59,845 nt of DNA, taken from a virus. Lineage: Duplodnaviria; Caudoviricetes. The translations under genes were made by a program, and so were the position numbers. Under the pieces are notes generated by a model, which saw nothing but the letters and a program-made list of their open reading frames with translations, had not been told where the DNA came from and made no database searches. Every line of letters starts with the position of its first letter. Position 1 is the first letter of the stretch. The stretch covers positions 1-59,845 of the IMG/VR virus record IMGVR_UViG_3300005533_000243; one strand, given 5' to 3'. Positions 1,278-26,461 of this stretch are shown here, one piece after another.

Positions 1278-1292
1278 ACGCGCTCCCCACTA

Positions 1293-1312
1293 GAAACCAT
1301 CTCATTGCGCCC
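1293..1312. repeat. 20-bp sequence with an exact inverted copy at 26015-26034
   Basis: gaaaccatctcattgcgccc here; gggcgcaatgagatggtttc at 26015-26034. Confidence 0.9.
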
Positions 1313-1317
1313 TTCGA

Positions 1318-1626
1318 CTAAATTATTTTCTTGCGCCAGTTACCATTGACCGTCTTTTCGTAGTTTTCCAGCCACCAGTAATGCCAAACGTGTCCGAGCC
1401 ACGCAATGTTGACCGAGACGACTATCGCGCCGCCAGTGAACGACAGCCACTGCCCGAGGCTGGGATAGTAGTAGAGGTTCCAGAGCCCCCATGCGGTGGT
1501 CCACGCGATCGTCGGCCAATAAAATCCCTGCACCTTCTTGCTCTGGCGGAGCATCATGACGCCTCGCCAAAGGAAGTAGGCGATGCCGAACTCGAAGATG
1601 CCGTTGGTGAGATCGGCCCAGGTCAT
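1318..1626 (-). CDS. SemiSWEET/PQ-loop-like three-TM membrane protein
   Basis: MTWADLTNG start (ATGA overlap with upstream gene); three hydrophobic helices, KKVQG loop, WNLYYY...VN pattern. Confidence 0.6.
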   Translation of the reverse strand: MTWADLTNGIFEFGIAYFLWRGVMMLRQSKKVQGFYWPTIAWTTAWGLWNLYYYPSLGQWLSFTGGAIVVSVNIAWLGHVWHYWWLENYEKTVNGNWRKKII

Positions 1627-1826
1627 TGCCCGCCTTTGCCCGGTGCTGCGCAGTATGGGCGGCCGTTGTGGGAGAAGAGCACTTGAGGCGGGAAGCAGAA
1701 ATACTCGCCACTCATGCACTTTGCGGACTGCAAGTCGCGCTCCGTGCACTTGAATTCGGGGAAGCTTCCATAGTTGTCGCAGGCGGACGCCAGGAGCGCT
1801 GCGATCACGGCTAGAGCTCTAATCAT
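1623..1826 (-). CDS. Small Cys-rich lipoprotein
   Basis: Signal peptide with lipobox LASAC; ATGA overlaps on both sides. Confidence 0.65.
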   Translation of the reverse strand: MIRALAVIAALLASACDNYGSFPEFKCTERDLQSAKCMSGEYFCFPPQVLFSHNGRPYCAAPGKGGQ

Positions 1827-2035
1827 TGGCAGAACTCCTGTTTGAGGTTCTCGAGGCCGGCAATCACTTTCTCGATTTGCGCCATCGAGACGCCGGTCGA
1901 GTCCTTGAGGAGAACGACGATCGCCCGCTTCTTGAGACCGCCATTGAGGAGACGCGTAACGCCCTCGCTGATCTTGGTGATCGACTCGGCGAGGATCTGA
2001 TCGCTCTCCTCGAAGCCTTCGGTTTTCTTAACCAT
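1823..2035 (-). CDS. Hypothetical protein
   Basis: Overlaps neighbouring ORFs in the operon. Confidence 0.7.
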   Translation of the reverse strand: MVKKTEGFEESDQILAESITKISEGVTRLLNGGLKKRAIVVLLKDSTGVSMAQIEKVIAGLENLKQEFCQ

Positions 2036-2387
2036 GGGGCTTCTTCTCGGCGACTTTCTTTTCGAGGGCGCGAAGCGCTTCGATCTCGAGCGTGAGCGCC
2101 ACTTCGACGTCGCAGTTGGAGAATAACTTTTCGCGATATTTGTTGACGCCGTTGCCGAACCAGATATCGCTGCATGTCGTATTGCCTCCCGCGGTCGGAG
2201 CCGATTGCATGTTCAGCTCCTGCGACATGGTCGCTCTACGGCAGTCTCGATATTCGTTGTCGCCGTGATCGAGCGCGGCGTAGCAGCGCAGCGGGATGCC
2301 GCTGAGGATCGAGGGAGTAGCCGGTCGACCATCTCCGCCTGCGAACACAGCCGCACCAAGAAGTAGACCGAAAATAAAACCCATCAC
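2028..2387 (-). CDS. Hypothetical exported/membrane-anchored protein
   Basis: Hydrophobic N-terminus, GGAGGT RBS, 4 Cys. Confidence 0.7.
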   Translation of the reverse strand: MMGFIFGLLLGAAVFAGGDGRPATPSILSGIPLRCYAALDHGDNEYRDCRRATMSQELNMQSAPTAGGNTTCSDIWFGNGVNKYREKLFSNCDVEVALTLEIEALRALEKKVAEKKPHG

Positions 2388-2422
2388 TTACCTCCATGTA
2401 GTTCTTCGGTTTTGGTGACCAT
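2384..2422 (-). CDS. 12-aa bridging mini-ORF MVTKTEELHGGK
   Basis: TAATG overlap upstream and TGATG overlap downstream. Confidence 0.35.
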   Translation of the reverse strand: MVTKTEELHGGK

Positions 2423-2637
2423 TATTTCCGCGGATTTTCCGCGAGCACCCGCTCAATATCGGCGCGCGATATGATGATGGAGCGATGAACCCCGACCCAC
2501 CACGCGGGAAGCGAGATGCAGAAGACCTGCGGTCTATTGTTTATGCAGAGGCGAGCACTCAGACGTATGTCTGGAGCGGCCAGGTTGCCGCCGTCATCAA
2601 ATGTTTCCATCTTCGCCCATGCGCAAACACGGGCCAT
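2422..2637 (-). CDS. Hypothetical protein
   Basis: MARVCAW start via TAATG overlap with the HD gene. Confidence 0.55.
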   Translation of the reverse strand: MARVCAWAKMETFDDGGNLAAPDIRLSARLCINNRPQVFCISLPAWWVGVHRSIIISRADIERVLAENPRK

Positions 2638-3194
2638 TATTTCCCTCCGTACTGGTAGAACGACGACAGGAACTCGGTGGCCGCGGTCTCCGGCGACCAG
2701 AAGCACAGCTTCACGTGCAGCGGCGGCTCGTCACTGCCCCAGTCGCGGGGGGGTACGTCCATCGTTGCCATGTTCTGCGCGCGCTCGTCGGCGAGGATCG
2801 CGTTGTCGAGTCGCTTCACCTCGTCGGGCACCGGCCACTGGATCCCGTAGCGTTTGGCGACGGTGAGCATGATCTCGTGCTCGATCTCGGCGTAGTTGCT
2901 GAGATTCGCTTTGATCGGGCGCGGGATGTCGACGAGGTACGCTTCGCTCGCATCGTGCAGGAGCGCGGTGAGCGCAAGCTCGCGTGGCGCATGGCGCGCC
3001 ACCAGGACGCAGTGCTCGGCCACCGAGTAGAAGCGCGTGCAGTGACCGCCGTAGCGGCACATCTTCGCAAGCGCGTGCGCGATGTCGTTGATGTCAAGCT
3101 CGTCCGCGCGCGGATCCACCGGCCAGAACTTCCGGCCCGAGTAGGTCTGCATCCAATTGCCTTTACGCGTCTTGTGGATTGTCATTTGGAACAC
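2637..3194 (-). CDS. HD-domain phosphohydrolase (YfbR/YfdR-like 5'-deoxynucleotidase)
   Basis: DIAHAL...CRYGGH..FYSVAEH...LLHDASEAY.VDIPRP motifs; exact start uncertain. Confidence 0.88.
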   Translation of the reverse strand: MFQMTIHKTRKGNWMQTYSGRKFWPVDPRADELDINDIAHALAKMCRYGGHCTRFYSVAEHCVLVARHAPRELALTALLHDASEAYLVDIPRPIKANLSNYAEIEHEIMLTVAKRYGIQWPVPDEVKRLDNAILADERAQNMATMDVPPRDWGSDEPPLHVKLCFWSPETAATEFLSSFYQYGGK

Positions 3195-3621
3195 TCTCGT
3201 GAGGGGGGAGGGGATGGAGCTCGAGCCGGTATCCCGTCCCGAACGTGTTGGTGATCGTTATGTGCAGCTCGGCCGCGCGGCTGCGCAGGCCCTTCAGCAG
3301 GACGCGCACGGTGTTCTTGTTGCGCTTAAGCGTGCGTCCGTAGACCGCGACGTAGAGCTCATCGAGCGTGACGGACTTCGGATGCGATTGTGTCATCCGG
3401 TAGAGAAGCGACGCCTCCGACGGGCTGAGCTTCACGGTCTTCAGGCCGCGCGTGGCGAGGTTGGTGAACAGGTTCACGGACACAAGATCATCCGGACGAA
3501 CGCGCGCAATGAGATCGACGATCGCCGAGGCCGACTCGGCAGCGAGCGCGTCGCCGACGGCCGCCGCGTTGTTCAGCTTCTCGATCAGTGCGTCCAGTTG
3601 ATTTCGTTCTTCTGAGTTCAT
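3163..3621 (-). CDS. Orphan OmpR/PhoB-type winged-helix DNA-binding protein
   Basis: KLSPSEASLL...VTLDELYVAVYG...TVRVLLKGLRSR...ITNTFGTGYRL; no receiver domain. Confidence 0.75.
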   Translation of the reverse strand: MNSEERNQLDALIEKLNNAAAVGDALAAESASAIVDLIARVRPDDLVSVNLFTNLATRGLKTVKLSPSEASLLYRMTQSHPKSVTLDELYVAVYGRTLKRNKNTVRVLLKGLRSRAAELHITITNTFGTGYRLELHPLPPHESVPNDNPQDA

Positions 3622-3641
3622 CTGTGGGTGCCCAATGGTGG

Positions 3642-6600
3642 TTAGGCTTCGTCGATGAAGTTGGCGTGCGGCGAATTATTCAGGTCGATTTCCACGAGAT
3701 ATTCAGACGCGACCGCGTACTGCGTTCCCGAGCCAATGAACCCGCGCACGGTCTTCGCTTTGAACTCGCGCTCGAGCGCGCGATTGAAGATATGGCGGGA
3801 ATAGTTGTTGTCGCCCAACCAGTTAGACAGCTTCGTGGAGCTGATCCGCATCAGCTTCTGATCGAGGCCGACGTGCACGTACACGCTCTCTAGCCGAGAG
3901 GCATCACGCTTCACCACGATGCCGGATGGCTTGCCCTTCGAGGTGTGGATGCGGTTGGTGTAAAGCGTGTGGCGGGCGCGCATCTCATTCAGAAATTGCG
4001 CGAGAATGTTGGACACGTTCATCGTGTCCTTCATGTCCACCGGTTGGCTGGCGCGCTCGCTCCGCATTCCGGCAAGCGTAGTGATCATGAATTGCTTCAG
4101 CCCCTCTTCGTCGATCTCCGTGAACTTCAGCTCGTTTGAGTATTTCGCTCCCAAACAGACGCAGGTGATCAACGCCGCCCAAAATCTTTCGTCGGGCTGT
4201 ATCCTGAGTTCGGTCTCCAGATTTTTGAAGTAGGAATTGACTTCAGAGTTAAGGCGCGCGTGGTGCGCTCCCAAAAACTTCGCGAACTCAAGTCCGACGA
4301 TGCCGTAGTTATCGTGCAGTGCACCAAGCAGACTTTGTGCATCAGCGAGCGCAACCTGAGCACCAATCGCTGGTGGTACTTCGTATTCGAAGACGCGATA
4401 CAAACCAGCCGTCGTCATTTTTGTCCTCGTCAACACGAAGTCGAGAAGACTTTCATTCGACGCCGAAACTAGAATCGTTTGCCACGTCCCCGGGTTCCGC
4501 TGCTGGGACGACTGCGTTAACCGCGACTTTTCTTTTCCTAGGGAAAGCTGGAACGCGAGATTGACGAACTTCTTCGTATCGTCTTCAGTTTTCAGCTCGT
4601 CCCAAAAGAGGGGCAGCGAGCGGATCTCGCCGATCTTGTTGACGACGGAGTTCTGCGTATCTGAAAGCCCCTGCATGGCTTTAATGGGATCGCCCCACAC
4701 CGCCTGCGCGATCTTGAGCGCAGTCGATTTTCCGATGCCGGACTCGATCGAGTAGAGGCTCATGAGGAGCCCCGTCTGGCCGGTAAAGCGCACGAGCGGC
4801 GCGCCGAAAGAGGCGGCAATCACCGCGTCTAGCGCCGGCCGCTTCTGTTGCGTGACCATCTTTGCCGCCGTGATCCACGGCTCGATGGCGCCGGTCGGCT
4901 CGTACTGCTGCGCGATAACGAAGTCGGGGCTGGCGGCTTGGCGCTCGCCGTTCGGCGACCAGACGTGGCCACCGAAACAGAAACCGTCGATCTTGCCGAA
5001 GGCGGTGTTCCACCCGAACGGCACGGAGGAGACGGTCATCCCCTTCGTCTTCTGAAGCTTCTCGATCCAGCTAACCACGAATTCCACCGTCATGCTGGTC
5101 TCGCCCTTGCGGAGCGGAACACCCTGCGCCCATAGCGTCGAGCGCATTCCCGCGTCGTCGCTTACGTCGGTAAAAGGGAGGGTGATTTTTTTCTGCCTCC
5201 CACTATCCAGAATGGTTGTGAAGTGCAGTGCCCACGGACTAACTTGTAGCCAGGGGTCCTGCATCGGATACTTGCAGATCGGGATGAAGTCTTGCTGACC
5301 GTCTTCACGCGTGGTGATTTTGAGAACGACGCCGTCGGCGCGTCGGACATAACCAGTCGGTAGGTCGGACTGGGAAACGGCGGGCTGAGGTGGACCACCG
5401 AATTGGGTTCCAGATGGAGCCCCGCCAGCTTGGCCGTTACCAACACCAGCGACATTCCCAGGTAGATTCCCACCACCAGCGTTAGGAGTGGGAGAGTTCC
5501 TGGGCGTGAAATGTAGTGGCGATTTCCCAGCGGCGAAGTGGACGCAGCTCTGGCAGAGCTTGCAACCGCTGCCACTGATCGTGCGGCACGCCGGCCAGCC
5601 GAGGCCTTTGGCTTCTTTCTCGCGTTCTTTCCTGTCGAATAGCTCATCAGTGCTCTCCTGGGTGTAGCCCGGATGCTTGTTCGCCATCCGGTGCGCGTCC
5701 GCGCGCGGATTGTCCGTGAACGTCGCGATCAGCGTCGTCAGGTTCCACAGCGGATTGGTGAAAGCCGCGCCGCCAGTATCGAGAGCATCGCGAATGAACC
5801 CACACTCAGACTTGAGCTCATCGAGCTTGATCGGCGCGGCCCTTCCCATATCGACTCCCATCGCGAGCGCACTGTCGCCCGTGATCGGGGGCCGAGACGG
5901 GAAAAGCGAGGGGTCGATGTCTTTGGTGATTGGTGCGGCGACGCGGTACGGCTCGAGCGCCGCCCAGATCCGATCGACTGCGTAATCGAAATCGGTCCGG
6001 CCTCCGGTGAGGCGAACGGGACGCGGCGGCTCGGTCTTCCGGTTGAAAGTGTCGGGCACGCGCAAAACGCGCGCCGCGTCGATTGTGCATTGCGTGTCGC
6101 ATTTCAGGCCGAGCTGCTTCGTGGCTTCGGCGAGGGCGAAAGCGAGCGGGTTCCACTCGGGCGGCGTGAGTGCGCGCGCAAGCGTCCAGTAGACGTGCAT
6201 CCCACCGCCCGACGAAACGATCAGGCTCGGCTTCGGCATGTTGGATTTGGCGAGGAAGTTACCCAGCGAGGTAACGGCCTCGTCGGGCGTGTCGTAGCCG
6301 TGATCGCCACCCTTGAAGTCGATGTCGATGAACAACGACTTGAGGTAGGCGGCGTTCGCCTGCGAGCGTACGGGCGTGAAATACTTGCCGCCGCTGCGGG
6401 CGGCGGTCTTTTCCGTCGCCGTCCGCTGCGAGCTCATGCACGCATAGATGTCGCGCGTAGTGGAATTTTTTAGCGCATACTCGATCGCCCGCACGGCTTC
6501 GTTGAGCGATCGACATGCGCGCCCCGTCCACGGCGCCTTGCGCCCCGGCTCGAGATCTGGGGGCACAAAGGTCCAATGGATATTCACGAAGGTAGGAGCT

Positions 6601-6662
6601 TCCCCTTCTTGGGGCCAAGGAACGACGCGCGCCAGATATTCTTTTGCTTGTTCGGTGGACAT
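3642..6662 (-). CDS. Primase-helicase (RepB/AEP-like primase, Zn-binding region, DUF927-type P-loop helicase)
   Basis: FIDIDFK, SSGGGMHVYW, DAARVLRVP; C..CxxCxxC cluster; Walker A SGIGKST and Walker B LFWDE. Confidence 0.85.
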   Translation of the reverse strand: MSTEQAKEYLARVVPWPQEGEAPTFVNIHWTFVPPDLEPGRKAPWTGRACRSLNEAVRAIEYALKNSTTRDIYACMSSQRTATEKTAARSGGKYFTPVRSQANAAYLKSLFIDIDFKGGDHGYDTPDEAVTSLGNFLAKSNMPKPSLIVSSGGGMHVYWTLARALTPPEWNPLAFALAEATKQLGLKCDTQCTIDAARVLRVPDTFNRKTEPPRPVRLTGGRTDFDYAVDRIWAALEPYRVAAPITKDIDPSLFPSRPPITGDSALAMGVDMGRAAPIKLDELKSECGFIRDALDTGGAAFTNPLWNLTTLIATFTDNPRADAHRMANKHPGYTQESTDELFDRKEREKEAKGLGWPACRTISGSGCKLCQSCVHFAAGKSPLHFTPRNSPTPNAGGGNLPGNVAGVGNGQAGGAPSGTQFGGPPQPAVSQSDLPTGYVRRADGVVLKITTREDGQQDFIPICKYPMQDPWLQVSPWALHFTTILDSGRQKKITLPFTDVSDDAGMRSTLWAQGVPLRKGETSMTVEFVVSWIEKLQKTKGMTVSSVPFGWNTAFGKIDGFCFGGHVWSPNGERQAASPDFVIAQQYEPTGAIEPWITAAKMVTQQKRPALDAVIAASFGAPLVRFTGQTGLLMSLYSIESGIGKSTALKIAQAVWGDPIKAMQGLSDTQNSVVNKIGEIRSLPLFWDELKTEDDTKKFVNLAFQLSLGKEKSRLTQSSQQRNPGTWQTILVSASNESLLDFVLTRTKMTTAGLYRVFEYEVPPAIGAQVALADAQSLLGALHDNYGIVGLEFAKFLGAHHARLNSEVNSYFKNLETELRIQPDERFWAALITCVCLGAKYSNELKFTEIDEEGLKQFMITTLAGMRSERASQPVDMKDTMNVSNILAQFLNEMRARHTLYTNRIHTSKGKPSGIVVKRDASRLESVYVHVGLDQKLMRISSTKLSNWLGDNNYSRHIFNRALEREFKAKTVRGFIGSGTQYAVASEYLVEIDLNNSPHANFIDEA

Positions 6663-6688
6663 TGGCTTCGCTTATGGGCGCGAGGTGA

Positions 6689-7630
6689 TTATTCGGGCAT
6701 CAGCTCCTTCAGCTTGGCGTCGAGGCTGTCCTCGAAGCTCTTGCCGTTGGTCGCCGGCTGCTGCGCGGCGACCGTGGTGGCCGTGGGCGGGGCGAAGCCA
6801 TGCGACTGAGGCTGGGGTCCCGCCTGGATCTGCGGAGCGGGAGCCGACTGAGGCGGCTGCTCGAAGGCGCCGGCAGGCGGATTGGCCGTTGCTGGAGCGG
6901 TGATTTCCGAGCCCTCGGCGAGGATGCGGGCAACTTCCGGCGACTTCTGCATTTCAATGATGAGGTCGGCTTCGGCGTCGGTCAGCGGCCTGATCGCGCT
7001 GAACTCGAACTTCGGATACGACTCTTTCGCGTCGAACGCGATGCGCACACCGATCGAGTAGTAGGGATACCCCATCGCCTGGTAGCGCTGACCGAACGTC
7101 GCGAGATCCTGGAGCGATCCGGCAGGCACGCGCAGGAGCATCGGCCCCTTGAACATCTCGTTGCGAATATCGTCGAGCGGCACGACGGCGAGGCGCTTCG
7201 AGTCCTGGCAGGCCTTACCCTGCTTGCCCGAAGGCGTGATGCGCGATCCCCACGCGTTTTTGGGGCAGCTCGCACACGAAGGGCTCTGCTTCTTGGCCGC
7301 TCCCGGCTCTGGCGTGAGGCCCGTGGTCGAGAAGCAGTCGGGAGCGGCGGACGCGCCTTCGGTGTAGCCCGCCTCGTACCAGATCTTGGAAACGTGGGAG
7401 CTCGCCTTGACGATCACGATCTCGATCGAGTTGCGCGGCCCGTCGCCGTCAGCACGCATGAGCTGGCGCTCTTCGCCGCGGTAGCGGGTGCTCCACACCT
7501 TGCCACGATACCCGATGATGCCGAAGCCGGTTTGGACGCCGGCGGCAAGATCGTTCTCGGGGGGACGGTTGGCGAAGCGCGTAGAGACGGCTCCGAAACC
7601 GGGCTGCTGTACGATTGCATTCATAGTCAC
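6689..7630 (-). CDS. Putative ssDNA-binding/annealing protein
   Basis: Position between primase and helicase; C..CASC..C Zn site; Pro/Ala linker and charged tail. Confidence 0.55.
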   Translation of the reverse strand: MTMNAIVQQPGFGAVSTRFANRPPENDLAAGVQTGFGIIGYRGKVWSTRYRGEERQLMRADGDGPRNSIEIVIVKASSHVSKIWYEAGYTEGASAAPDCFSTTGLTPEPGAAKKQSPSCASCPKNAWGSRITPSGKQGKACQDSKRLAVVPLDDIRNEMFKGPMLLRVPAGSLQDLATFGQRYQAMGYPYYSIGVRIAFDAKESYPKFEFSAIRPLTDAEADLIIEMQKSPEVARILAEGSEITAPATANPPAGAFEQPPQSAPAPQIQAGPQPQSHGFAPPTATTVAAQQPATNGKSFEDSLDAKLKELMPE

Positions 7631-7652
7631 TTCTCCTGTGGATGGCTCGAAA

Positions 7653-8072: not shown

Positions 8073-8087
8073 GGTTACCTCCGTAGG

Positions 8088-11380: not shown

Positions 11381-11743
11381 TTATGCGGCTACGGATGGTT
11401 TCGTTTCGCTCTCCGTAACCTGCGGGGTAATCATCCCGCGGATTTTTTCTTTGGTTTCTTCGTCGAGCCAGTAGCCGACGTTGCGCCGCGAGTGGATTTG
11501 GATCTCCCACTCTTTCAGGTGGCGGCGAAGGCGGTGAACGGCGACCTTGGCGTCAGTCGCGATCTCGAGCCGCTGCCGGATGATTTCAGGCGTGACGGTA
11601 TCGAGTGAGATGAGAAGGCCGAACAGATTGTTCTGGGCCGGGGAGAGACGAAACGTGTTAGCGATGGTCTGATTGTTCTGGTTGAGAGCGGCACGCAGGT
11701 CTCGCAGTTGCTGCCGCAGAACTTCGATTTCGTCGTCCGACAT
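11381..11743 (-). CDS. Orphan OmpR/PhoB-type winged-helix DNA-binding protein with N-terminal coiled coil
   Basis: FRLSPAQNNLFGLL...AKVAVHRLRRHL...IHSRRNVGYWL. Confidence 0.78.
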   Translation of the reverse strand: MSDDEIEVLRQQLRDLRAALNQNNQTIANTFRLSPAQNNLFGLLISLDTVTPEIIRQRLEIATDAKVAVHRLRRHLKEWEIQIHSRRNVGYWLDEETKEKIRGMITPQVTESETKPSVAA

Positions 11744-17144: not shown

Positions 17145-17168
17145 GGTGGGTTACCTCCAAGGTAAAGG

Positions 17169-17213: not shown

Positions 17214-17232
17214 AGGCGTATCTTCGGTGCGA

Positions 17233-18619: not shown

Positions 18620-18634
18620 CGTTACCTCGTGGGG

Positions 18635-19177: not shown

Positions 19178-19261
19178 TGATCGCTTTCTTGCAGGTGGAA
19201 GACATGCGCCAGTAACCCCGCAGGGTTACGCGGGGGTCACATTTCAAAATCGTTCAGGAAT

Positions 19262-19390
19262 TTATTTCTGTTCGGCGGCGCGCTCGTGCGCGAGTTTCGC
19301 CAACGCCAAGAGCAGGCCAGCGATCTTCTCCAGCGAGCGCCAGATAAAGAGGAGCAGAAGCGCGACGACGATGAGTGTGGCGGTCAGCAT
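19262..19390 (-). CDS. Small membrane peptide (42 aa)
   Basis: GAGGAG RBS then MLTATLIVVALLLLFIW. Confidence 0.6.
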   Translation of the reverse strand: MLTATLIVVALLLLFIWRSLEKIAGLLLALAKLAHERAAEQK

Positions 19391-19398
19391 GATGCTCC

Positions 19399-19806: not shown

Positions 19807-20108
19807 GATTTCTGTCCAATGAGCGCGAGCATCAGCTCGGCGGCCGGTCGGTCTTTGTCGAGCAATTCGAGGAACCCGCGACCCGCTTCCGTGAGGAGGT
19901 AACGCTTGCCCTTGCGCGGCCCGGCGCGCCGCATCTCGACAAGCCCGAAAGCGAGTCTGGTCTCGTTTGGATTCCAAGACGGGGATTTGGAGTAAACAGA
20001 CTTTGGAATGAACGGCAGCCGGGCGCCGCCTTCGTGTTGGCACAGCCGAAGCCACTCAACGAACTTGGTTTCCTTGCCGGCATAGAAGAGCTTCGGGACG
20101 CCCTTCAT
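19803..20108 (-). CDS. Hypothetical protein (possible winged-helix)
   Basis: GLVEM...RYLLTEAGR pattern; ATGA overlaps. Confidence 0.6.
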   Translation of the reverse strand: MKGVPKLFYAGKETKFVEWLRLCQHEGGARLPFIPKSVYSKSPSWNPNETRLAFGLVEMRRAGPRKGKRYLLTEAGRGFLELLDKDRPAAELMLALIGQKS

Positions 20109-20452
20109 TTCGTAACCTCGTCAGGTAACTTCGGCACGCGGCCCATCCAGGGCTCAGGCTTGATCGCCCGCATCCAGTCGACGAACGACGGGATATGTCC
20201 GAAGTCCTCTTGAACGTGCTGCTCGCCAACCCACCGAGTCGGTACTTCGCGGCCGGTGCTGATCTTCACGATCGGTCCAAAGAGCTGCACGCAGAGCATG
20301 ATGCCCTCGGCGTGATGGCGCAGCGCGCGATGTCGAAAGTCGCAACTGATCGCCTTCGATCCGTCGAACCATTGGTGGATGTGCAGGTAATCTTCCGGCG
20401 TTCCACCCCACTTCTTCGCGCTCGACCTCGCGTGGTGATAGGGGTCAGCCAT
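20105..20452 (-). CDS. DUF6915-like protein
   Basis: PYHHARSSAKKWGG..EDYL.IH.WFD.SK...RHRALRHH..G...VGEQHVQED. Confidence 0.8.
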   Translation of the reverse strand: MADPYHHARSSAKKWGGTPEDYLHIHQWFDGSKAISCDFRHRALRHHAEGIMLCVQLFGPIVKISTGREVPTRWVGEQHVQEDFGHIPSFVDWMRAIKPEPWMGRVPKLPDEVTK

Positions 20453-20822
20453 TTTTCTTCCGCTGCCGGCTGCGGACCTTGTTGCCCGTCGAGTAATCCC
20501 AATGGGAATGCTTGGAGTCGGTGAACCGCTCGTTCATTTCGAGCAGCACCTGGCCGGTGTCCGCGACGACTTCGACCCGGCCAAAGCCACCATCGTTGTT
20601 GTACCAGTCGATCCCCGGCCGGTTGATGATCGCGTAAACGAATTCCTCGATCGCTTCCCGCAGCGGCATTCGGGCTCGGCTGCCGTCGGAAATCAGGCGT
20701 TCGAAAAATAACCCGTCAAGGTTACCTTCCGTCAGACCCTCGACCAGGAAGTCGCTGATCTGGCCGCTATCGCCGGCGCCATCGAAGTCGACGACCAGCT
20801 TGGTGATGCCATGCTTCTTCAT
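20445..20822 (-). CDS. DUF6878-like protein (start uncertain; see frameshift finding)
   Basis: GITKLVVDFDGAGDSGQI and WYNNDGGFG motifs. Confidence 0.7.
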   Translation of the reverse strand: MKKHGITKLVVDFDGAGDSGQISDFLVEGLTEGNLDGLFFERLISDGSRARMPLREAIEEFVYAIINRPGIDWYNNDGGFGRVEVVADTGQVLLEMNERFTDSKHSHWDYSTGNKVRSRQRKKNG

Positions 20823-20896
20823 GACGTCGATAAGCAGCTCATCGTTGTCGAAAGTATTTTTCGTTGGCCATGGTGGTGGCTCCAAGGTGTGGGTGG

Positions 20897-21205
20897 TCAG
20901 TCGAGGTGGAAGAACCAGCGAACGTGTTGCTTGAGGGTTTTCCACAGGCGGCGGCGCGCACGCGCGCGGAGATATTTGATGTACCAATCGTTCGGCGCCG
21001 GCGTCGTGTCGAACTTGTCGAGGAAGCCGCCCAGCTCTTCCATCATCGCGCGCCAGTAAATTTGCTTGCTGCGGGCGGCGTTCGTTTGCGGAAACCCGAC
21101 ATTGCCGTTCCCCAATCGAACCGGCAGCTCGACGTCCATCCAGATGTCGGCATCGGTCACACCGTGCGCATCCAGCTTCTTCTTGATCGCCTCGACATAG
21201 TTCAT
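20897..21205 (-). CDS. Hypothetical protein
   Basis: ORF fits the operon; plausible RBS. Confidence 0.7.
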   Translation of the reverse strand: MNYVEAIKKKLDAHGVTDADIWMDVELPVRLGNGNVGFPQTNAARSKQIYWRAMMEELGGFLDKFDTTPAPNDWYIKYLRARARRRLWKTLKQHVRWFFHLD

Positions 21206-21264
21206 GGGCTCACCCCTGCGCGCAGCGTCGCGCGTTTGAGTATCGCGTGGGTAACCTTGCGGGG

Positions 21265-21597
21265 TTACTCGGCGGAATTTTTCAGGCGGTCTAGCTTCTT
21301 CTGAAGCGACCGGATAAGCCCGTCGTTCAGATCGAGCGTGCGATCCTGCCTGAACTTGTGGTGTGGATGTTCCGGCACTGGGCCGGCTTCCAGTCGGCGA
21401 TTTCGGTCGCGCAAATACTTGATGCGTTGTTCGAGCGCCGCGATTTCGACGGCTGTATTTGCCGGCTTTGGTTCGGGCGTTTTTGGTTCGTGAGTGCGCG
21501 CCACTTCGATCGGCGCTTCTCGCACCTCGCCACGCTTGCGTTTCAGAAAATCGGGAATCTCCAGCTCGGCGTATTCGTCCTTATTTTCTTCGTCCAC
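21265..21597 (-). CDS. Hypothetical protein (LEIPDFLKR motif, coiled coil)
   Basis: ORF fits the operon; ELEIPDFLKR resembles the FtsZ C-terminal core peptide (LDIPAFLR). Confidence 0.65.
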   Translation of the reverse strand: MDEENKDEYAELEIPDFLKRKRGEVREAPIEVARTHEPKTPEPKPANTAVEIAALEQRIKYLRDRNRRLEAGPVPEHPHHKFRQDRTLDLNDGLIRSLQKKLDRLKNSAE

Positions 21598-21874
21598 GTT
21601 TCTTCCAACGCTCCAATAGATCGTAGATCACCGCCTGCGCTTCCACGGCGTCCAAACACACGGACAGATCAGTGCCCTTGTTCGGCCAGCCGAACTTCTC
21701 GCTGCTGTCGAAACCGACGATGCAATACTTGGTGCCGTTTTTGCTTCGCCAAACCATCATGTGGTCGGCGCGGCGACCGCCAAACTTGTTGTCGGTCAGT
21801 GGTGCCCAATGTGTCCACTCCACGCGACCCGGTGGAAGTTCAGCGTCTCGCCAGTCGAGATGCTCCAGTTTCAT
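21581..21874 (-). CDS. Small early protein, D-xxx-AQ paralogue family
   Basis: MKLEHLDW...LDAVEAQAVI. Confidence 0.7.
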   Translation of the reverse strand: MKLEHLDWRDAELPPGRVEWTHWAPLTDNKFGGRRADHMMVWRSKNGTKYCIVGFDSSEKFGWPNKGTDLSVCLDAVEAQAVIYDLLERWKKRGRRK

Positions 21875-22174
21875 CTCACCACCAGACCATCGAATGACCC
21901 AATAGCCAGGCGACGTAACCCAGCGAGGTTACCGCGGCGGCGTAGGCAGCGAGTGGAGTGAGCATCAGCGGGGTTCCGTGATTTCGTGGTTCGGTGGTGT
22001 TATTTGGTAGGCTTCTTCGATCGGCGCTTCTTCTTGATCTTGCCTTGCGCGCGGAGTTCGCAGAGGGTTTCGAACCTATGATCGCTGACCAGCTCGTTCC
22101 ACCCCTCGCCGATTTCGAGTTTCTCGATCGCCTTTAGGTGCGGTATCCAGTCTTTCTCCGTGCCGACAAAGAGT

Positions 22175-22438
22175 TTACATTTCGCCTTGCCGAAAAGCGT
22201 TGAGCAGCAGTTGCGCTTCGAGCGGGTCACGATCGTACCATTCTAGCGTTTGGAGTTTGGGCCGCGTGTAGATGACCGTCATAGCGTGCGGCGAGTAATT
22301 CGTGCGCATGAACTCAATGCGCGCGCCGTCAGCGCGGTTCACGCAGGCTTTTTCGACAACCAATCTCGGCGTGCCGCCCGGTGGTCGATGGCACGGCAAA
22401 AACTTCAAATCGCCAATCGTGAGTGCGCGCCTACTCAT
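22175..22438 (-). CDS. Small early protein, D-xxx-AQ paralogue family
   Basis: LTIGDLKF...RDPLEAQLLL. Confidence 0.7.
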   Translation of the reverse strand: MSRRALTIGDLKFLPCHRPPGGTPRLVVEKACVNRADGARIEFMRTNYSPHAMTVIYTRPKLQTLEWYDRDPLEAQLLLNAFRQGEM

Positions 22439-22748
22439 CGAGCGGCAGTCCCAACAGCGAGGCCGTCTCGGCGTCGAGCTGCAAGCCAGGTCCGTTGTTC
22501 GCTTTCATGTGCTCGGCCATGCGGAACAGTTGCTCGCACTTGAACATGGCGTTGCCGTTATGCAGCGCGAACTTCGGGTCGGAGTTGGCCTTGCGGAGCG
22601 CGTCGCGCGCGATCGCGCGCCACGAGCGCGGCTGCGCCATGCGCCGGCGAGCCTCGTCCTTGATCGCTCTCCAGCGACCACGACCTAGGGCTTCGATCTG
22701 CGCCTGTGCGGCGCGCATGATTTCGTCAGGCGGCACTATGCGGGTCAT
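22431..22748 (-). CDS. Hypothetical protein
   Basis: GAGGT RBS. Confidence 0.7.
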   Translation of the reverse strand: MTRIVPPDEIMRAAQAQIEALGRGRWRAIKDEARRRMAQPRSWRAIARDALRKANSDPKFALHNGNAMFKCEQLFRMAEHMKANNGPGLQLDAETASLLGLPLDE

Positions 22749-22986
22749 TGTTACCTCGCTGGTTACCTGTGAGTTCGATCAGGATGCACTGGGCCTGAAG
22801 TGGGTCGAGCCGCCGCCAGGTCTCTGTGACTTTGTTGTTTTTGTATCGGTAGACAAGATCGTAGAACGGTGTCGAGTTGGCTCGCATCCAAATAGAGATG
22901 TAGCCGTCGTCCGTGACCACGTGCGCGTATTTCCATAGCGAGCCATCGTCCACCGGCTCTTCCCACGGTATCTCGTCGAGCGTCAT
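22726..22986 (-). CDS. Small early protein, D-xxx-AQ paralogue family
   Basis: MTLDEIPW...LDPLQAQCIL; ATGA start. Confidence 0.72.
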   Translation of the reverse strand: MTLDEIPWEEPVDDGSLWKYAHVVTDDGYISIWMRANSTPFYDLVYRYKNNKVTETWRRLDPLQAQCILIELTGNQRGNNDPHSAA

Positions 22987-23207
22987 AGCTTCGGTCTCCA
23001 CCGGGGAATGAGTTTCCACAGAACCGCCTGCGCCGTCGGAGCATCGAGGTCATCGAACCTTTTCATGCGGCCGCGACCATCGCGCTTCTGAAAATGTATC
23101 GAGTAGGCGCTATCCACGGCGCTCAATAGGATCACCAGGTAAGCGCCATGCGGCGCTTTAACCCGCGTCCATAATCCTTTCTCAAGCGGTAGATCACTAA
23201 GCAGCAC
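22983..23207 (-). CDS. Small early protein, D-xxx-AQ paralogue family
   Basis: GTG start with AGGAG RBS; (M)LLSDLPL...LDAPTAQAVL. Confidence 0.68.
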   Translation of the reverse strand: MLLSDLPLEKGLWTRVKAPHGAYLVILLSAVDSAYSIHFQKRDGRGRMKRFDDLDAPTAQAVLWKLIPRWRPKL

Positions 23208-23463
23208 GCAGCATCTCCTGCGCCAGCGCGTACTCCGCGAGCTTCTCGATCGGACCATGGAATAGGGTGTGGCGCCGACCGGGGTTCAACTCGATCACGA
23301 TCGACACGCCGTTTATCTCTACGTCGCCGACGTCCATCGCAAAGAGCCGCACGTGGATCGCCTCGCTCCGCGAGGTCGCCGATACCCTCAGTCCCGTCGA
23401 CGCGTGGCCAACCCGCGAACCTTCGCCGTTGCCGCCTTGCACGGCGCCGTAGTACCTAGCCAT
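23197..23463 (-). CDS. Hypothetical protein
   Basis: MARYYGAVQG start with GGAGGT RBS. Confidence 0.75.
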   Translation of the reverse strand: MARYYGAVQGGNGEGSRVGHASTGLRVSATSRSEAIHVRLFAMDVGDVEINGVSIVIELNPGRRHTLFHGPIEKLAEYALAQEMLRAA

Positions 23464-23698
23464 CGTTACCTCCGCAGGTAATGTGGTTGAGGATGCACTG
23501 GGCGGACGCAGCGTCGATGTTCTTGTGCTTGAAGAACATGTCGCCTTGCCCGTCCCAGTCACGCGAGCAGGTGTGTGAGATCGTGAACAGGTTGTTTTCC
23601 TCACGCCGCACAAAGTAAAAAATCCCGTCGCGGCCGAGCAGCATCTTCGTTGTGCCGCCGTCACCGTTGGTGAGGAACGGCAATTCATCGAGGCGCAT
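23456..23698 (-). CDS. Small early protein, D-xxx-AQ paralogue family
   Basis: MRLDELPF...IDAASAQCIL; GAGGT RBS. Confidence 0.72.
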   Translation of the reverse strand: MRLDELPFLTNGDGGTTKMLLGRDGIFYFVRREENNLFTISHTCSRDWDGQGDMFFKHKNIDAASAQCILNHITCGGNDG

Positions 23699-23785
23699 GG
23701 TTACCTCGCGTGGTTACGTTGGCGTGAGTGCGCGCGACACTACGGCGTGGCGTCACTGTGTTCACGGTGCATCTCCGCGTCACGA

Positions 23786-23923
23786 TCAGTGCTCGGCCAG
23801 ATAGGCGAGCAGCTTCTCGTACTTGCCGTCCATGATGTCGCGCCGCATCTGCGCTTCGATACGCTTGCGCTCTTCGGCGCTGACGGGGCGCGCGACCATC
23901 ACGGGTTTCTTCTCGGTCGCCAC
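23786..23923 (-). CDS. 45-aa hypothetical protein not in the ORF track
   Basis: GGAG RBS, GTG start, MATEKKPVMVARPVSAEERKRIEAQMRRDIMDGKYEKLLAYLAEH, strong GC3 codon bias. Confidence 0.65.
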   Translation of the reverse strand: MATEKKPVMVARPVSAEERKRIEAQMRRDIMDGKYEKLLAYLAEH

Positions 23924-24179
23924 GGGTTGTCTCCATCGTGGTGTGGGTAGGCGTGAAGAAATTTCCTAACGAATGAATTTGAATATGTGTGAAGATGATG
24001 GGGTGGCGGCGCTGCTCACTCGCACGCTGGCGGGAACTGCCGCCACCCCACGCTCGCGGCTCTGGCCAACCGTTCAAGGGTCAGCCTGCTGCGAGCTACC
24101 GGCGCACTGCTCCCAACTCTTGGGTTCAGGGCATCACGCCCCTAGCTGCGCCGGGATACTTAGGCGTTACCTGTGGGGG

Positions 24180-24920
24180 TTACGCCGCCTCGGCCTGCTG
24201 CTCGCCGGGCTGCTCGGTCGCGGGAGTATTCTCCACCACCGTCAGTCCCAGCGAAGCCGCCTTGGCCAGAACCTCGTCGCGCTCCTTCACGCTCATGAGG
24301 GCAGCGAGACGCTGCTTCACGAGCGAGTGAGCCTGCACGAGTTCGTCCGACTGATCCTGCACGCCGGCTTCGCCAGTCACGATCTTCTCGATCGAGTTGA
24401 CGATGCGCGTGAGTTCGGTTTCCAAGGTCTTGTCCTTGGAGACCTTCTCGCAGGCGGCGCGGATCTGGTCGTCGGTCAGGTCGGTGTCGCACGCAAGCTG
24501 CGCCCGCGCGACGGCGACGAGCGCCGGATACGGGGACACAACTTTCACTTCGCTCTTCACCATCTCCTGATAGAGACGGGAAGCGCGCGTGAACACTTCG
24601 ACCGGATCGCAGGTCGTCATGCCGCCGACCGCGATAAGCTGGCGAAGCTTGGAGACATTCGCCTTCTTGCCCGTGGCGGTGTGATCGTGAACGGCCTTCT
24701 TGCTCTCGGCCGTCAGATAGGCGTCGTAGACGCGATGCGCGTCGTCCTTGCCTTCGCTGTCCTTGTCCAGCGTAACGATGCCATCGTTCGCCGCGCGCAC
24801 GATCTTGTGCGCGAGCGACGGAAGGCTGTCCTTGCCGGACGCGGCGTCACGACCCAGCTCGCGGACCTCGCTCATGAGGTCGTCGAGCCGCTTGTCGTTC
24901 TTCTGCGCTTTGGTGACCAT
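24180..24920 (-). CDS. Hypothetical early protein
   Basis: 246 aa, GGAG RBS, strong codon bias. Confidence 0.85.
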   Translation of the reverse strand: MVTKAQKNDKRLDDLMSEVRELGRDAASGKDSLPSLAHKIVRAANDGIVTLDKDSEGKDDAHRVYDAYLTAESKKAVHDHTATGKKANVSKLRQLIAVGGMTTCDPVEVFTRASRLYQEMVKSEVKVVSPYPALVAVARAQLACDTDLTDDQIRAACEKVSKDKTLETELTRIVNSIEKIVTGEAGVQDQSDELVQAHSLVKQRLAALMSVKERDEVLAKAASLGLTVVENTPATEQPGEQQAEAA

Positions 24921-25081
24921 TTCAAGTTGCTCCGTGGGTTGCCATCTCGCTACTCAGCGCCGGAGATAGCTGTCGGCGCGTGCGGGGAGAAATCCCCGCG
25001 GTGGTTCGCGCGTCGATACACGGCGTGCGAATTACGTGGTCTTGGTTGCCTATGGGTAACTTCACAGGTTACCCGACGCTC

Positions 25082-25192
25082 TCGCGCTGAGGCGCGGCGA
25101 AAAGAAAAAGCCCATCGCACCACGACACCAACAAATCGCGCGAGCGATCTGGCTGCTAAGGGTCGGACGGTACGATGGGCTAGTCAGCGCGA
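25082..25192 (-). terminator. Nested stem-loop with U-tract (terminator/attenuator candidate)
   Basis: 25082-90 pairs with 25184-92 and 25109-21 with 25169-81; AAAAGAAAAAG reads as a U tract on the minus strand. Confidence 0.5.
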
Positions 25193-25402
25193 CGCGGGAG
25201 GACGATCGCGCAGGGGGATGGTTTGGTGGTTGCGTGGTGTAATAGACCGGACACCAAGTTCAACCGGCGGTGTGGTGAGGCGGGTTCGTGCGCGCGTGAG
25301 TGCGCGCCGCGTCACCGGCGGCGATCTTTATATGTGTGAATAATCGCCGGTTCAGATAAGTTACAGCAAATTTGTTTTCGCTGCCGCGCCAATGGCTTGC
25401 GG

Positions 25403-25564
25403 CTTATTCTCCATATTCTCCATATTCGCAGGAGATACAGGCGAATTATTTCGAGCTTCAATTCCAAAATGTAACCTAGCGAAAGTTACATTTTGGAATT
25501 GAGGGGTCGCGCGGGGGGTGTGTATCTAAAACCTATAGTAAATATAGAGAATATAGAGAATAAG
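25403..25564. repeat. Large AT-rich nested inverted repeat (origin candidate)
   Basis: Perfect 18-bp arms 25458-75/25485-502; 7-bp arms 25433-39/25521-27; 22/24 arms 25403-26/25541-64. Confidence 0.85.
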
Positions 25565-25588
25565 AAAGAATGTCGCTGCGGCACTAAG

Positions 25589-25656
25589 CTAACTTTAATT
25601 GCTATACTTTCAAGCAACCGAGTTCGGTTGTGGTAAATATAGCAATTAAGTTTTAG
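25589..25656. repeat. Second imperfect palindrome
   Basis: TTAATTGCTATA...CAACCGA-GT-TCGGTTG...TATAGCAATTAA. Confidence 0.8.
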
Positions 25657-25662
25657 TTGTAG

Positions 25663-25938
25663 TCAGCGCGCCTTGATGAGTTCGTCGCGCGGCTCGGCCC
25701 AGCAAACCACCGGACCATTAGACCACCGACGCGCGCCATTGCCGTAAGTCTTAGCGCGATATGGTTTCACGCCGGCGCAAGGCACGCGCACGACCAGCGC
25801 ATCATCGTATGATGCAATGGTCTTGTGGTGCGGATTGAACACGGCGCGATAGAGTTCGCGGTCGAAAGCCTCGTGGCATCGCTCGCTGAATTGCTTGCGC
25901 GCCTTCTCGATCTTCGCCCGCATGGATGGGTTCGCCAT
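25663..25938 (-). CDS. Hypothetical protein
   Basis: GAGGT RBS inside a GTWAC box. Confidence 0.65.
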   Translation of the reverse strand: MANPSMRAKIEKARKQFSERCHEAFDRELYRAVFNPHHKTIASYDDALVVRVPCAGVKPYRAKTYGNGARRWSNGPVVCWAEPRDELIKAR

Positions 25939-25986
25939 GGGGTAACCTCGTGGGTAACAAAACGATCAGACCATGAAATGAACAAA

Positions 25987-26461
25987 TGCGCCCACGACCG
26001 CAATCGCAAGCCGTGGGCGCAATGAGATGGTTTCCCGGTATCCAGTCTCTTGTTGACTGGGGTCTAGCCCTTCCACTGACGCGGTGTTCGCACGGCTCTG
26101 GGTGAGCGTGCTACTGGGCGCGCACCAAGTTCACTTGGTTTCGTGGTCGCATGGTGTTAGGCAGTTTAAGACCTTGAGAGTTGCGGATAACGTGGCCAAT
26201 AGTCCAGCATCTCCGCCACACCCTTCGGGACCATACCGACGACATGACGGCGCAGGGTTCACTCGGCTCCGCGCTCGCGGAATTTCCTCTGGCACCATCG
26301 GGCTTTTTCATAAGTCAGGGCACCCGAAGCCCCCGCGCGTCTGCACGCGCCGCGATATGACCTAGCTATCTCGCCCGTTGGCAATCTCGCCCGCACCGCG
26401 TAGCTCCACTGGTGAGCAGGAGCGCCGCCGACAGCCTTTTATACTGTCGCACCTTTCGGTG
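25987..26461 (-). ncRNA. Candidate structured non-coding RNA or long leader
   Basis: No convincing ORF; at least six short hairpins; strand is inferred. Confidence 0.35.

What the first reader, a model, noticed from the sequence alone, without database searches (positions are those of the whole stretch)
1293..26034. Exact 20-nt inverted copy of the integrase leader 24.7 kb away
Seen: 1293-1312 lies 4 nt upstream of the int RBS (1283-1288) and is the exact reverse complement of 26015-26034. Both copies are non-coding. Part of the distal copy is held in a 10-bp hairpin (25987-96/26012-21). Inference A: a leftward RNA from the 26 kb region carries a perfect antisense to the int leader and silences integrase during lytic growth, switchable through the hairpin. 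Inference B: the two sites are recombination cores allowing inversion of the whole early arm. Inference C: a shared operator. Any of these would be an unusual lysis-lysogeny link.
Basis: partly seen in the sequence, partly recalled or inferred. Interest (0 to 1): 0.78.

Follow-up and report, generated by a model that had tools for sequence, protein, structure and literature searches.

The report
Integrase leader mirrors early-operon leader
A prophage carries, just in front of its integrase gene, an exact 20-base inverted copy of part of a conserved hairpin signal that starts its early operon, which could let the two RNAs pair and tie integrase output to early transcription, though this has not been shown.

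Summary
Window 1293-1312 is the exact reverse complement of 26015-26034. These are the only two copies in the 3.28-Mb genome, and the edges are sharp.

The window is a 61.3-kb prophage integrated at tRNA-Val, with two divergent arms. Both copies lie in leaders of minus-strand units. One sits 16-35 nt before the int start codon. The other sits at the head of the 25-kb early operon.

New here: the distal copy is the 5' flank (13 nt) plus the first 7 nt of the 5' arm of a hairpin. That hairpin is conserved with compensatory stem changes in a related phage (15 pairs: 7 identical, 1 one-sided, 7 compensatory, 0 broken). A Rhizobium phage shares 13 nt of it. So the int-leader copy looks derived.

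Best reading (about 0.37): early-leader RNA, a free seed followed by a hairpin and a U-rich tail, pairs with the int leader.

Against this reading:
- No RNA data exist.
- Three temperate relatives with unrelated integrases at the same position show no such pairing.
- No near relative covers both sites.

A functionless junction relic is nearly as likely. A shared operator is not excluded. Inversion is unsupported.

The parts
1293..1312 (-). Proximal copy. On the int (minus) strand it reads GGGCGCAATGAGATGGTTTC, 16-35 nt upstream of the int ATG, 4 nt from the SD and 5 nt after the stop codon of the upstream ORF.
26015..26034 (-). Distal copy. On the early-operon (minus) strand it reads GAAACCATCTCATTGCGCCC. 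It comprises a 13-nt flank predicted mostly unpaired plus the first 7 nt of the 5' arm of the leader hairpin.
25987..26021 (-). Early-leader hairpin of 13+2 base pairs. The apical part GGCUUGCGAUUGCGG is conserved in the G349 phage and the lower stem covaries.
25972..25986 (-). U-rich tail after the hairpin (UUUGUUCAUUUCAUG). Together they form a possible intrinsic terminator or attenuator ahead of the first early gene.
   Evidence: weak, because terminator-like hits in the region are not above shuffles
26042..26060 (-). Small upstream hairpin CCAGUC-AACAAGA-GACUGG, 5' of the unpaired seed region in the predicted leader fold.
180..1277 (-). Tyrosine integrase, the last gene of the minus-strand early arm.
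1283..1288 (-). int Shine-Dalgarno sequence GGGGAG.
   Evidence: read directly from the sequence
1318..1749 (-). ORF upstream of int (143 aa from GTG, or 102 aa from ATG 1626). No family was found and it has no homolog in relatives. It is part of the lineage-specific int module.
25663..25938 (-). First gene of the early arm (91 aa), a weak homolog of the first early gene in G349.
3504..3515 (+). Third, partial copy: GCGCAATGAGAT (12 of 12, or 15 of 20 when extended), inside the 5' part of the Trans_reg_C gene, in the same DNA orientation as the distal copy. It is borderline against chance (about 0.07-0.1 expected).
26539..26573 (+). Strong plus-strand terminator at the late-gene edge of the control region. 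It belongs to a block conserved in 6 phages of the family and bounds the central non-coding region.

Best explanation
The distal 20-mer belongs to an ancestral, structured signal in the leader of the early operon: a conserved 5' flank followed by a hairpin. The proximal 20-mer is a lineage-specific inverted copy of that flank plus the base of the 5' arm. It sits in the 40-nt spacer in front of an integrase cassette that this phage lineage acquired.

Both sites are transcribed from the minus strand, so early-leader RNA would be perfectly complementary over 20 nt to the int leader just upstream of its SD. The pairing RNA is most plausibly short transcripts ending at the hairpin and U-rich tail, with the 13-nt flank exposed as a seed.

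The most likely effect (inferred) is that abundant early-leader RNA pairs in trans with the int leader. That would lower Int synthesis through steric interference near the ribosome-binding region, or through RNase III cutting of a two-turn duplex, whenever the early promoter fires strongly. The same duplex would strip 7 nt from the leader hairpin, so the effect could run both ways.

Shown here: the repeat, its uniqueness, strand and position, the hairpin and its conservation.
Inferred: the transcripts, the pairing in vivo and the direction of the effect.
For: The repeat is exact, unique in the genome and far beyond chance.

Both copies lie in non-coding leaders of minus-strand units.

In the predicted fold of the early leader, the 13-nt flank is mostly unpaired between a small 5' hairpin and a -28 kcal hairpin followed by UUUGUUCAUUUC. 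The fold has z = -3.6 against shuffles.

The hairpin is a real conserved structure. In the G349 phage (DNA polymerase 56% identical) it sits about 105 nt before the first early gene. Its apical sequence is the same and 7 of 15 stem pairs changed on both sides with none broken. This pattern points to an RNA or single-strand structure rather than a duplex operator.

The flank plus stem base (13 nt, CATCTCAT+TGCGC) recurs exactly next to a homologous smaller hairpin in the control region of Rhizobium phage RHph_TM3_14A (with E=0.008, 71, 72). So the distal copy is the ancestral one.

The int module (window -1047 to 2636) has no counterpart in G349 or TM3_14A. The hairpin element has no second copy longer than 11 nt in those two phages.

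Precedent, from passages I read in PMC4825925: a short, terminated leader RNA (IsrK) acts in trans on the read-through mRNA of its own operon. The same paper describes P4 CI RNA pairing with seqA and seqC in its own transcript.
Against: There is no expression evidence at all. No listed run is RNA.

I could not locate the early promoter, so it is not shown that a minus-strand RNA covers 26015-26034. The consensus scan found no minus-strand promoter there, and the terminator-like hits are not above shuffles.

Three temperate relatives carry an integrase at the same genomic position. None has an inverted match between the 150 nt upstream of int and its control region. The longest exact matches anywhere were 12, 14 and 13 nt. 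Their integrases are unrelated to this one, so this is a weak test, but it shows the pairing is not a family trait.

No near relative covers either site, so conservation and covariation of the pair could not be tested.

Perfect 20/20 identity with sharp edges is also what a recent, unselected templated insertion at a cassette junction would look like.

In TM3_14A the whole element is inverted relative to the early arm. This complicates a simple 'early-leader RNA' role.

Cofold energies did not separate the real pair from shuffled controls: a gain of -13.2 against a mean of -8.3 and a best of -15.8.
Confidence: 0.37

Rival explanations
1. Functionless relic. When the integrase cassette was swapped into the end of the early arm, a short stretch was copied in inverted orientation into the junction by template switching. 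Hairpin-forming DNA is prone to this. The copy is too young to have decayed.
For: The copy sits exactly at the upstream edge of the int cassette. That position is a swap point: 3 of 10 near-complete relatives carry unrelated integrases at the same place, and G349 and TM3_14A carry none. Identity is perfect with sharp edges and no flanking similarity. The pair is seen in one lineage only. The source lies at a strong hairpin.
Against: The source is not a random piece of a 61-kb genome. It is the conserved flank and arm of the early-leader signal. The destination is the 40-nt spacer 4 nt from the int SD, and the orientation is the one that gives same-strand RNA complementarity. Each of these would be a coincidence under this reading. 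A 12-nt partial third copy exists.
Confidence: 0.35
2. Shared DNA operator. One phage or host DNA-binding protein recognises the 20-bp site at the early control region and in front of int, and perhaps the 12-bp core at 3504-3515, so that int is co-regulated with early transcription.
For: Both sites are next to likely transcription start regions. A third site with the 12-nt core lies in the 5' part of the only clear DNA-binding gene of the early arm, Trans_reg_C (E=1.6e-8). The element occurs in the opposite orientation relative to the arms in TM3_14A, which a duplex site would tolerate.
Against: By my reading of the sequence, the 20-mer is neither palindromic nor a direct repeat. Operators for one protein are usually similar, not identical over 20 bp with sharp edges. 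The overlapping hairpin keeps its pairing while its arm sequence changes, which is the signature of a folded strand rather than a duplex half-site. No HTH, CI or Cro-type protein was found among 50 ORFs scanned with Pfam and 10 with PHROGs. The third copy is near chance level.
Confidence: 0.15
3. The same RNA element on two divergent transcripts (nut-like, or a common site for an RNA-binding factor). GGGCGCAAUGAGAUGGUUUC would stand at the head of the int mRNA and at the head of a rightward RNA that crosses the control region to the terminator at 26573.
For: Read toward the downstream unit, both copies have the same orientation. One faces int on the left. The other faces the rightward non-coding stretch that ends at a strong, family-conserved plus-strand terminator.
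Against: No rightward promoter was found left of 26015. The only promoter-like hit, at 26174-26203, lies downstream of the copy. The int leader lacks the hairpin partner. Two copies are too few to define a promoter or factor-site class.
Confidence: 0.06
4. Recombination cores. The two sites allow inversion of the 24.7-kb early arm, by the integrase or by homologous recombination. This would uncouple the early genes from their promoter.
For: The sites form an inverted orientation pair, and a tyrosine recombinase gene lies next to one copy.
Against: The integrase has ordinary attL/attR in tRNA-Val, and no 9-mer or longer of the 20-mer lies near them. The 20-mer lacks the dyad-symmetric arms of a core site, by my reading. 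Twenty bp is marginal for RecA-dependent exchange (recalled knowledge). An independent contig of the source run crosses the distal site with no joint or loose end. The present order is the one syntenic with five relatives.
Confidence: 0.04

Closest known systems
IsrK of the Gifsy-1 prophage (PMC4825925; I read the abstract and passages)
   Same: [quoted passage not shown] The regulator and the target are encoded on the same strand.
   Different: IsrK pairs within about 200 nt of its own locus and activates translation. Here the target lies 24.7 kb downstream, the gene is an integrase, the predicted effect is repression, and nothing has been tested.
Satellite phage P4 immunity: CI RNA with seqA and seqC (as described in a passage of PMC4825925; primary papers not read)
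   Same: A leader-derived RNA is complementary to other sites on the same transcript strand. At DNA level these are inverted repeats. The pairing is linked to premature termination in the early leader, and no protein repressor is involved.
   Different: P4 targets lie a short distance either side of the RNA gene, the pairings are imperfect (recalled), and the outcome is termination of early transcription rather than control of int. Rfam gave no match in the region at E up to 5.
Lambda sib retroregulation of int (recalled; the search found no paper on it)
   Same: Int output depends on which transcript carries the int message, decided by an RNA duplex that RNase III can cut. It links integrase level to early transcription.
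   Different: sib is a local hairpin downstream of int, and its linkage to int changes on integration. Here the partner is 24.7 kb upstream, both sites stay on the same side of attP, and the duplex would be intermolecular.
Lambda nutL/nutR (boxA plus boxB), recalled
   Same: A conserved single-stranded flank followed by a hairpin with a conserved loop, in the leader of an early operon. The copies appear as inverted repeats in the DNA of a phage with divergent arms.
   Different: nut copies give the same RNA on two divergent transcripts. Here the two copies give complementary RNAs on same-direction transcripts, and the second copy lacks the hairpin.
Invertible segments (Gin/Cin, Rci shufflon, fim switch), recalled
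   Same: Short inverted repeats with a recombinase gene next to one of them.
   Different: The segment is 24.7 kb and holds the whole replication arm. The site has no dyad symmetry. The recombinase has separate att sites. No inverted isomer was seen.

Membership tests
Trans-acting, leader-derived antisense RNA (IsrK / P4 CI type) | Extended complementarity between the regulator RNA and a target on another transcript or region | tested here: met
   20 of 20 nt, unique in the genome, same-strand units
Trans-acting, leader-derived antisense RNA (IsrK / P4 CI type) | A discrete RNA is made: a promoter upstream and a terminator or processing site downstream of the pairing region | tested here: inconclusive
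   A hairpin plus U-rich tail is present. No minus-strand promoter was found, and terminator-like hits are not above shuffles. No RNA run was available.
Trans-acting, leader-derived antisense RNA (IsrK / P4 CI type) | The pairing is kept or covaries in relatives | tested here: not met
   0 of 3 temperate relatives show an inverted match between the int leader and the control region. Their integrases are not homologous, and no close relative with both sites was available.
Trans-acting, leader-derived antisense RNA (IsrK / P4 CI type) | Regulatory effect on the target, abolished and restored by compensatory mutations | not testable with these tools
   Needs reporter assays.
Rfam families of phage regulatory RNAs (C4, IsrK, others) | Match to a curated covariance model | tested here: not met
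   0 matches at gathering score in the window. 0 matches at E up to 5 in 25800-26750.
Site-specific inversion system | Inverted crossover sites with dyad-symmetric recombinase-binding halves | tested here: not met
   The inverted pair is present. The 20-mer has no internal dyad symmetry, from my direct reading of the sequence.
Site-specific inversion system | Both orientations present in a population | tested here: inconclusive
   No joint or loose end at 26015-26034 in the contigs of 4 runs. Only X1 covers the site, and contigs drop rare variants.
Repressor/activator operator set | A cognate DNA-binding protein, with several related sites of palindromic or direct-repeat form at promoters | tested here: not met
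   No HTH or CI-type protein in 50 ORFs. The site is asymmetric. There are only 2 full copies and one 12-nt core.
Integrase arm-type or core-type sites | Copies of the motif in or beside attP/attL/attR | tested here: not met
   attL is at window -1094 to -1047 and attR at 60251 to 60298. No 9-mer or longer of the 20-mer lies near either.
nut-like antitermination site | The same RNA sequence (linear box plus hairpin) on each regulated transcript | tested here: not met
   The two copies are complementary on same-direction transcripts, and the int copy has no hairpin.

The most novel reading that the evidence does not exclude
This phage may run part of its lysis-lysogeny decision on RNA alone. 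The int leader would act as an extended mimic of the 3' arm of the conserved early-leader hairpin. One 20-bp intermolecular duplex would then do two things. Short early-leader RNA would silence int. Conversely, int-leader RNA would open the leader hairpin/attenuator and change read-through into the 25-kb early operon. That would be a reciprocal RNA toggle spanning 24.7 kb, in a temperate phage where no protein repressor could be recognised among 50 ORFs.
Probability: 0.08. Interest if true: 0.8.

Novelty: new variant of a known kind. Interest (0 to 1): 0.4.

Why it matters
If the pairing works, it would be a new way for a temperate phage to tie integrase supply to early transcription. The head of a 25-kb operon would control, by RNA pairing, the gene at its tail. 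It would also show how a newly acquired integrase cassette gets wired into an existing regulatory signal by copying 20 nt of it.

Independently of that, the work defines a conserved structured element in the early leader of a poorly studied family of ~60-kb phages of Alphaproteobacteria. It also shows that the end of their early arm is a swap point for integrase cassettes.

If the copy is a relic, the finding is an ordinary footprint of mosaic evolution.

Tried and rejected
Near relatives:
- DNA search of the control region in 60 related genomes gave 0 matches.
- blastn against 50,697 phage records gave no match.
- Peptide-pattern scans with int and with the 91-aa first early protein found no relatives in viral, metagenome or genome contigs.
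- The exact 20-mer gave 0 matches in metagenome contigs and viral contigs.

Expression:
- No RNA holder was listed among 4 runs.

Read laying:
- The source run's 15,890-nt contig is identical over 24900-27100 with no joint.
- Three mine-metagenome runs hold identical ~200-nt fragments, covering 11, 10 and 7 of 30 bins.
- None of these fragments covers 25936-26083, so they say nothing about the site.

Rfam: nothing found.

tRNA or tmRNA in the window: none.

Flanking homology of the two copies: none.

Thermodynamic cofold control: not discriminating.

Sub-motif clustering: TTGCGCC, TGCGCCC and TGGTTTC are all common in this GC-rich genome and not informative.

More members of the hairpin element:
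- A narrow apical regex gave 8 hits against about 17 expected, and none was hairpin-like.
- blastn-short against 88 loci and genomes found only the TM3-L013 pair.

Closest integrase homologs in 400 family genomes: 5 genomes, at most 42% identity, too distant to compare leaders.

MAFFT alignments of the hairpin (A2, A4) were not in structural register. I therefore counted pairs from individual folds in a script and built no covariance model.

Promoter hunting by eye gave only weak candidates, and I make no claim from it.

Literature searches found no paper describing an antisense RNA to an integrase leader in a phage. These are keyword searches of open-access text only. Supplements were not consulted.

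Full report
**Observation.** Window 1293-1312 reads GAAACCATCTCATTGCGCCC, and 26015-26034 is its exact reverse complement (pair I11).
- With up to 3 mismatches these are the only 2 matches in the window. Shuffles expect 0.01, and 0 of 100 shuffles reached 2.
- With up to 2 mismatches they are the only 2 places in the whole 3.28-Mb, 34-contig assembly.
- Identity ends abruptly. The 150-nt flanks align no better than shuffled sequence.
Its SD GGGGAG is at 1283-1288. The repeat lies in the 40-nt spacer after the stop codon of ORF 1318-1749.
- The distal copy lies in a ~700-nt stretch with no convincing ORF.

**Context.** The window is most of a prophage.
- A 48-bp direct repeat equal to the 3' end of a tRNA-Val gene lies at window -1094 to -1047 and at 60251 to 60298. 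The element is therefore about 61.3 kb, and the window lacks its leftmost 1.1 kb.
- Genes run leftward from 25938 to 180. They include a DUF6878 protein, a nucleotide kinase, DNA polymerase I, a PD-(D/E)XK nuclease, an SNF2 helicase, a DUF927 primase, an OmpR-type winged-helix protein and an HD-like protein, with int last.
- Genes run rightward from about 26638 (terminase, portal, capsid, a 2260-aa protein).
- The nearest named phages are four Rhizobium phages such as RHph_TM3_14A. Their DNA polymerase is 47% identical, they have the same divergent layout with a 680-nt central gap, and they have no tyrosine integrase.
- One of 400 genomes of the host family holds a relative, G349 (polymerase 56%).
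- G349 and TM3_14A lack everything from window -1047 to 2636. So int and five small ORFs form a lineage-specific module.

**What the distal copy is.** Read on the minus (early) strand, the leader folds as follows:
- a small hairpin (26060-26042);
- a mostly unpaired stretch that includes the first 13 nt of the 20-mer;
- a strong hairpin (26021-25987, 13+2 pairs) whose 5' arm begins with the last 7 nt of the 20-mer;
- then UUUGUUCAUUUC and, about 35 nt further, the first early gene.

The G349 phage has the same hairpin about 105 nt before its first early gene. The apical sequence GGCUUGCGAWUGSCGG is kept while the lower stem is different. Of 15 pairs compared, 7 are identical, 1 changed on one side, 7 changed on both sides and still pair, and none is broken. 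Only two sequences support this count. Even so, it is the pattern of a folded strand, not of a duplex operator.

In TM3_14A an exact 13-mer, CATCTCAT plus TGCGC, stands immediately 5' of a smaller hairpin with a similar loop (GCUUGGCAUUGC). The comparison of control region with control region gave E = 0.008. The close IMG/VR relative L013 keeps that hairpin with a covarying stem (GGCAC/GUGCC) but not the CATCTCAT flank.

In TM3_14A and L013 the whole element is inverted relative to the early arm. I cannot explain this.

The late-gene side of the control region is a separate block conserved in six phages. It contains CCTACANCCTAGG, a GTTACC-N-GGTAAC palindrome and a plus-strand terminator (26539-26573 here). 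In TM3_14A and L013 it is followed by TTGACA-N17-TATATT.

So the distal copy belongs to an ancestral leader signal, and the int-proximal copy is the derived one.

**Is the pair a family trait?** A portal-based scan found 202 relatives in IMG/VR, of which 80 were kept.
- Of 10 near-complete records, 3 carry a Phage_integrase gene.
- In all three it is the last gene of the early arm after the primase, as here. None is detectably related to this int (no tblastn hit at 1e-5).
- I scanned 150 nt upstream plus 30 nt of each int against its own genome. The longest exact matches were 12, 14 and 13 nt, and none was an inverted match into the control region. The same scan on this prophage returns the 20-mer.
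- The hairpin element has no second copy above 11 nt in G349 or TM3_14A.
- No near-identical relative was found that covers either site. The identical fragments in three mine-metagenome runs miss 25936-26083.
- The pair is therefore specific to this lineage, and its conservation cannot be judged.

**Mechanism.** Both units are on the minus strand. Early-leader RNA would therefore be perfectly complementary to the int leader at -35 to -16 from the AUG. The layout of a free seed, then a hairpin, then a U-rich tail is that of a base-pairing small RNA made by termination in a leader.

A published case of this logic is IsrK of Gifsy-1. Its short terminated form acts in trans on the read-through mRNA of its own operon. 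The same paper summarises P4 CI RNA pairing with seqA and seqC on its own transcript (PMC4825925; abstract and passages read).

I therefore favour trans pairing that lowers Int synthesis when the early promoter is very active. A 20-bp duplex is about the minimal RNase III substrate (recalled). Pairing in cis along a 25-kb transcript seems unlikely on kinetic grounds (inference).

The duplex would also remove 7 nt from the leader hairpin, so an effect on early read-through is possible.

In the int leader alone, the 3' half of the 20-mer is predicted to pair with codons 3-7, leaving the SD and AUG in a 14-nt loop. I cannot predict what opening this stem would do.

**Why confidence is modest.**
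- No RNA data exist.
- No minus-strand promoter was identified, and the terminator call is weak.
- The pairing is absent from the three temperate relatives.
- The copy sits exactly at the edge of a cassette that is swapped among relatives, where a templated insertion could arise without function.
- In favour of function, the source is the conserved leader signal, the destination is 4 nt from the SD, and the orientation is the pairing one.
- I put antisense regulation at 0.37, a functionless relic at 0.35, a shared DNA site at 0.15, a same-sense RNA element at 0.06 and inversion at 0.04.

**The operator reading.** It keeps some weight for three reasons. A 12-nt core of the motif recurs at 3504-3515 inside the only clear DNA-binding gene of the arm. 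About 0.07-0.1 such matches are expected by chance (my estimate). The element also tolerates inversion in TM3_14A.

No HTH or CI-type protein was found in 50 ORFs scanned with Pfam and 10 with PHROGs. That is a negative result from profile libraries, not proof that no repressor exists.

**The inversion reading.** It is disfavoured for these reasons:
- int has ordinary att sites;
- the 20-mer is asymmetric;
- no motif copy lies near the att sites;
- the gene order is syntenic with five relatives;
- an independent 15.9-kb contig crosses the distal site without a joint.

**Verdict.** The repeat is real and non-random, and its distal copy is part of a conserved structured leader element. The antisense link to integrase is a reasonable hypothesis and would be a new variant of known phage RNA control. 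It rests on anatomy alone.

Noticed in passing
window 6258-57024 (e.g. 8074, 14629, 16608, 17150, 18621, 23700, 25942, 31097, 37648, 50124, 53473): The palindromic motif GTWACC-N4-6-GGTWAC is hugely enriched. With exact halves there are 19 sites in the prophage, 0 in 28.5 kb of host flanks, and about 0.03 in shuffles. It is also enriched in relatives: TM3_14A 23, G349 7, G427 7, G428 4, G426 2. Many sites sit 2-6 nt before start codons with GGAGGTAAC serving as the SD; others lie inside genes. This looks like a family-wide signal (an SD-sequestering hairpin, a processing site or a dimeric regulator site) of unknown role.
   Followed up: partly
window -1094 to -1047 and 60251 to 60298 (outside the window; G000:C32): The prophage ends are a 48-bp direct repeat equal to the 3' end of tRNA-Val(cac) at window 60251-60325. 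The window therefore misses the leftmost 1.1 kb of the element, which holds two small ORFs.
   Followed up: yes
window 26040-26640: The late-gene side of the central gap is conserved in six phages of the family: CCTACANCCTAGG, a GTTACC/GGTAAC palindrome and a strong plus-strand terminator at 26539-26573. In TM3_14A and L013 a perfect TTGACA-N17-TATATT promoter follows. This suggests a ~500-nt non-coding RNA or leader in the late direction. Rfam has no match, and the fold z-score is 0.05.
   Followed up: partly
window 180-2636; G426, G427, G428: The end of the early arm is a swap point for integrase cassettes. 3 of 10 near-complete relatives carry integrases there that are unrelated to this one. 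G349 and TM3_14A carry none at that place.
   Followed up: yes
G349:C4:41001-141000 (L005-L009): The related phage appears one and a half times in a 465-kb contig with a period of 61,893 bp. Identity ends at 74097/135990, just after the HD-like gene. This is either a tandem prophage or an assembly path through the circular form. A different integrase (25% identical) lies 300 nt beyond the end. tRNA-Thr, tRNA-Pro and tRNA-Arg genes lie inside the unit.
   Followed up: partly
window 52123-58905: A 2260-aa protein at the end of the late arm carries an InPase (PF18823) domain, E=4e-51, at residues 779-912. It is conserved at 30-35% identity in all relatives examined.
   Followed up: no
window 26136-26147, 27735-27746 and -19 to -8: The 12-mer TGGTTTCGTGGT occurs three times on the plus strand: in the control region, at 27.7 kb, and just beyond the window's left edge (about 190 nt downstream of the int stop at 180), where it starts a run of TGGTTT-like repeats. 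It shares GGTTTC with the 3' end of the 20-mer's complement.
   Followed up: no
window 24900-27100: Fragments identical to this phage (0 differences, ~170-260 nt, depth 2.6-5) occur in three runs of a second study from a different habitat label. The same phage strain is therefore not confined to the source sample.
   Followed up: partly
window 3163-3621 and 11381-11743: Two small early-arm proteins carry OmpR-type winged-helix (Trans_reg_C) matches, E=1.6e-8 and 9e-4, without a receiver domain. The first is conserved in G349 and G428. They are the only recognisable DNA-binding candidates in the element.
   Followed up: no
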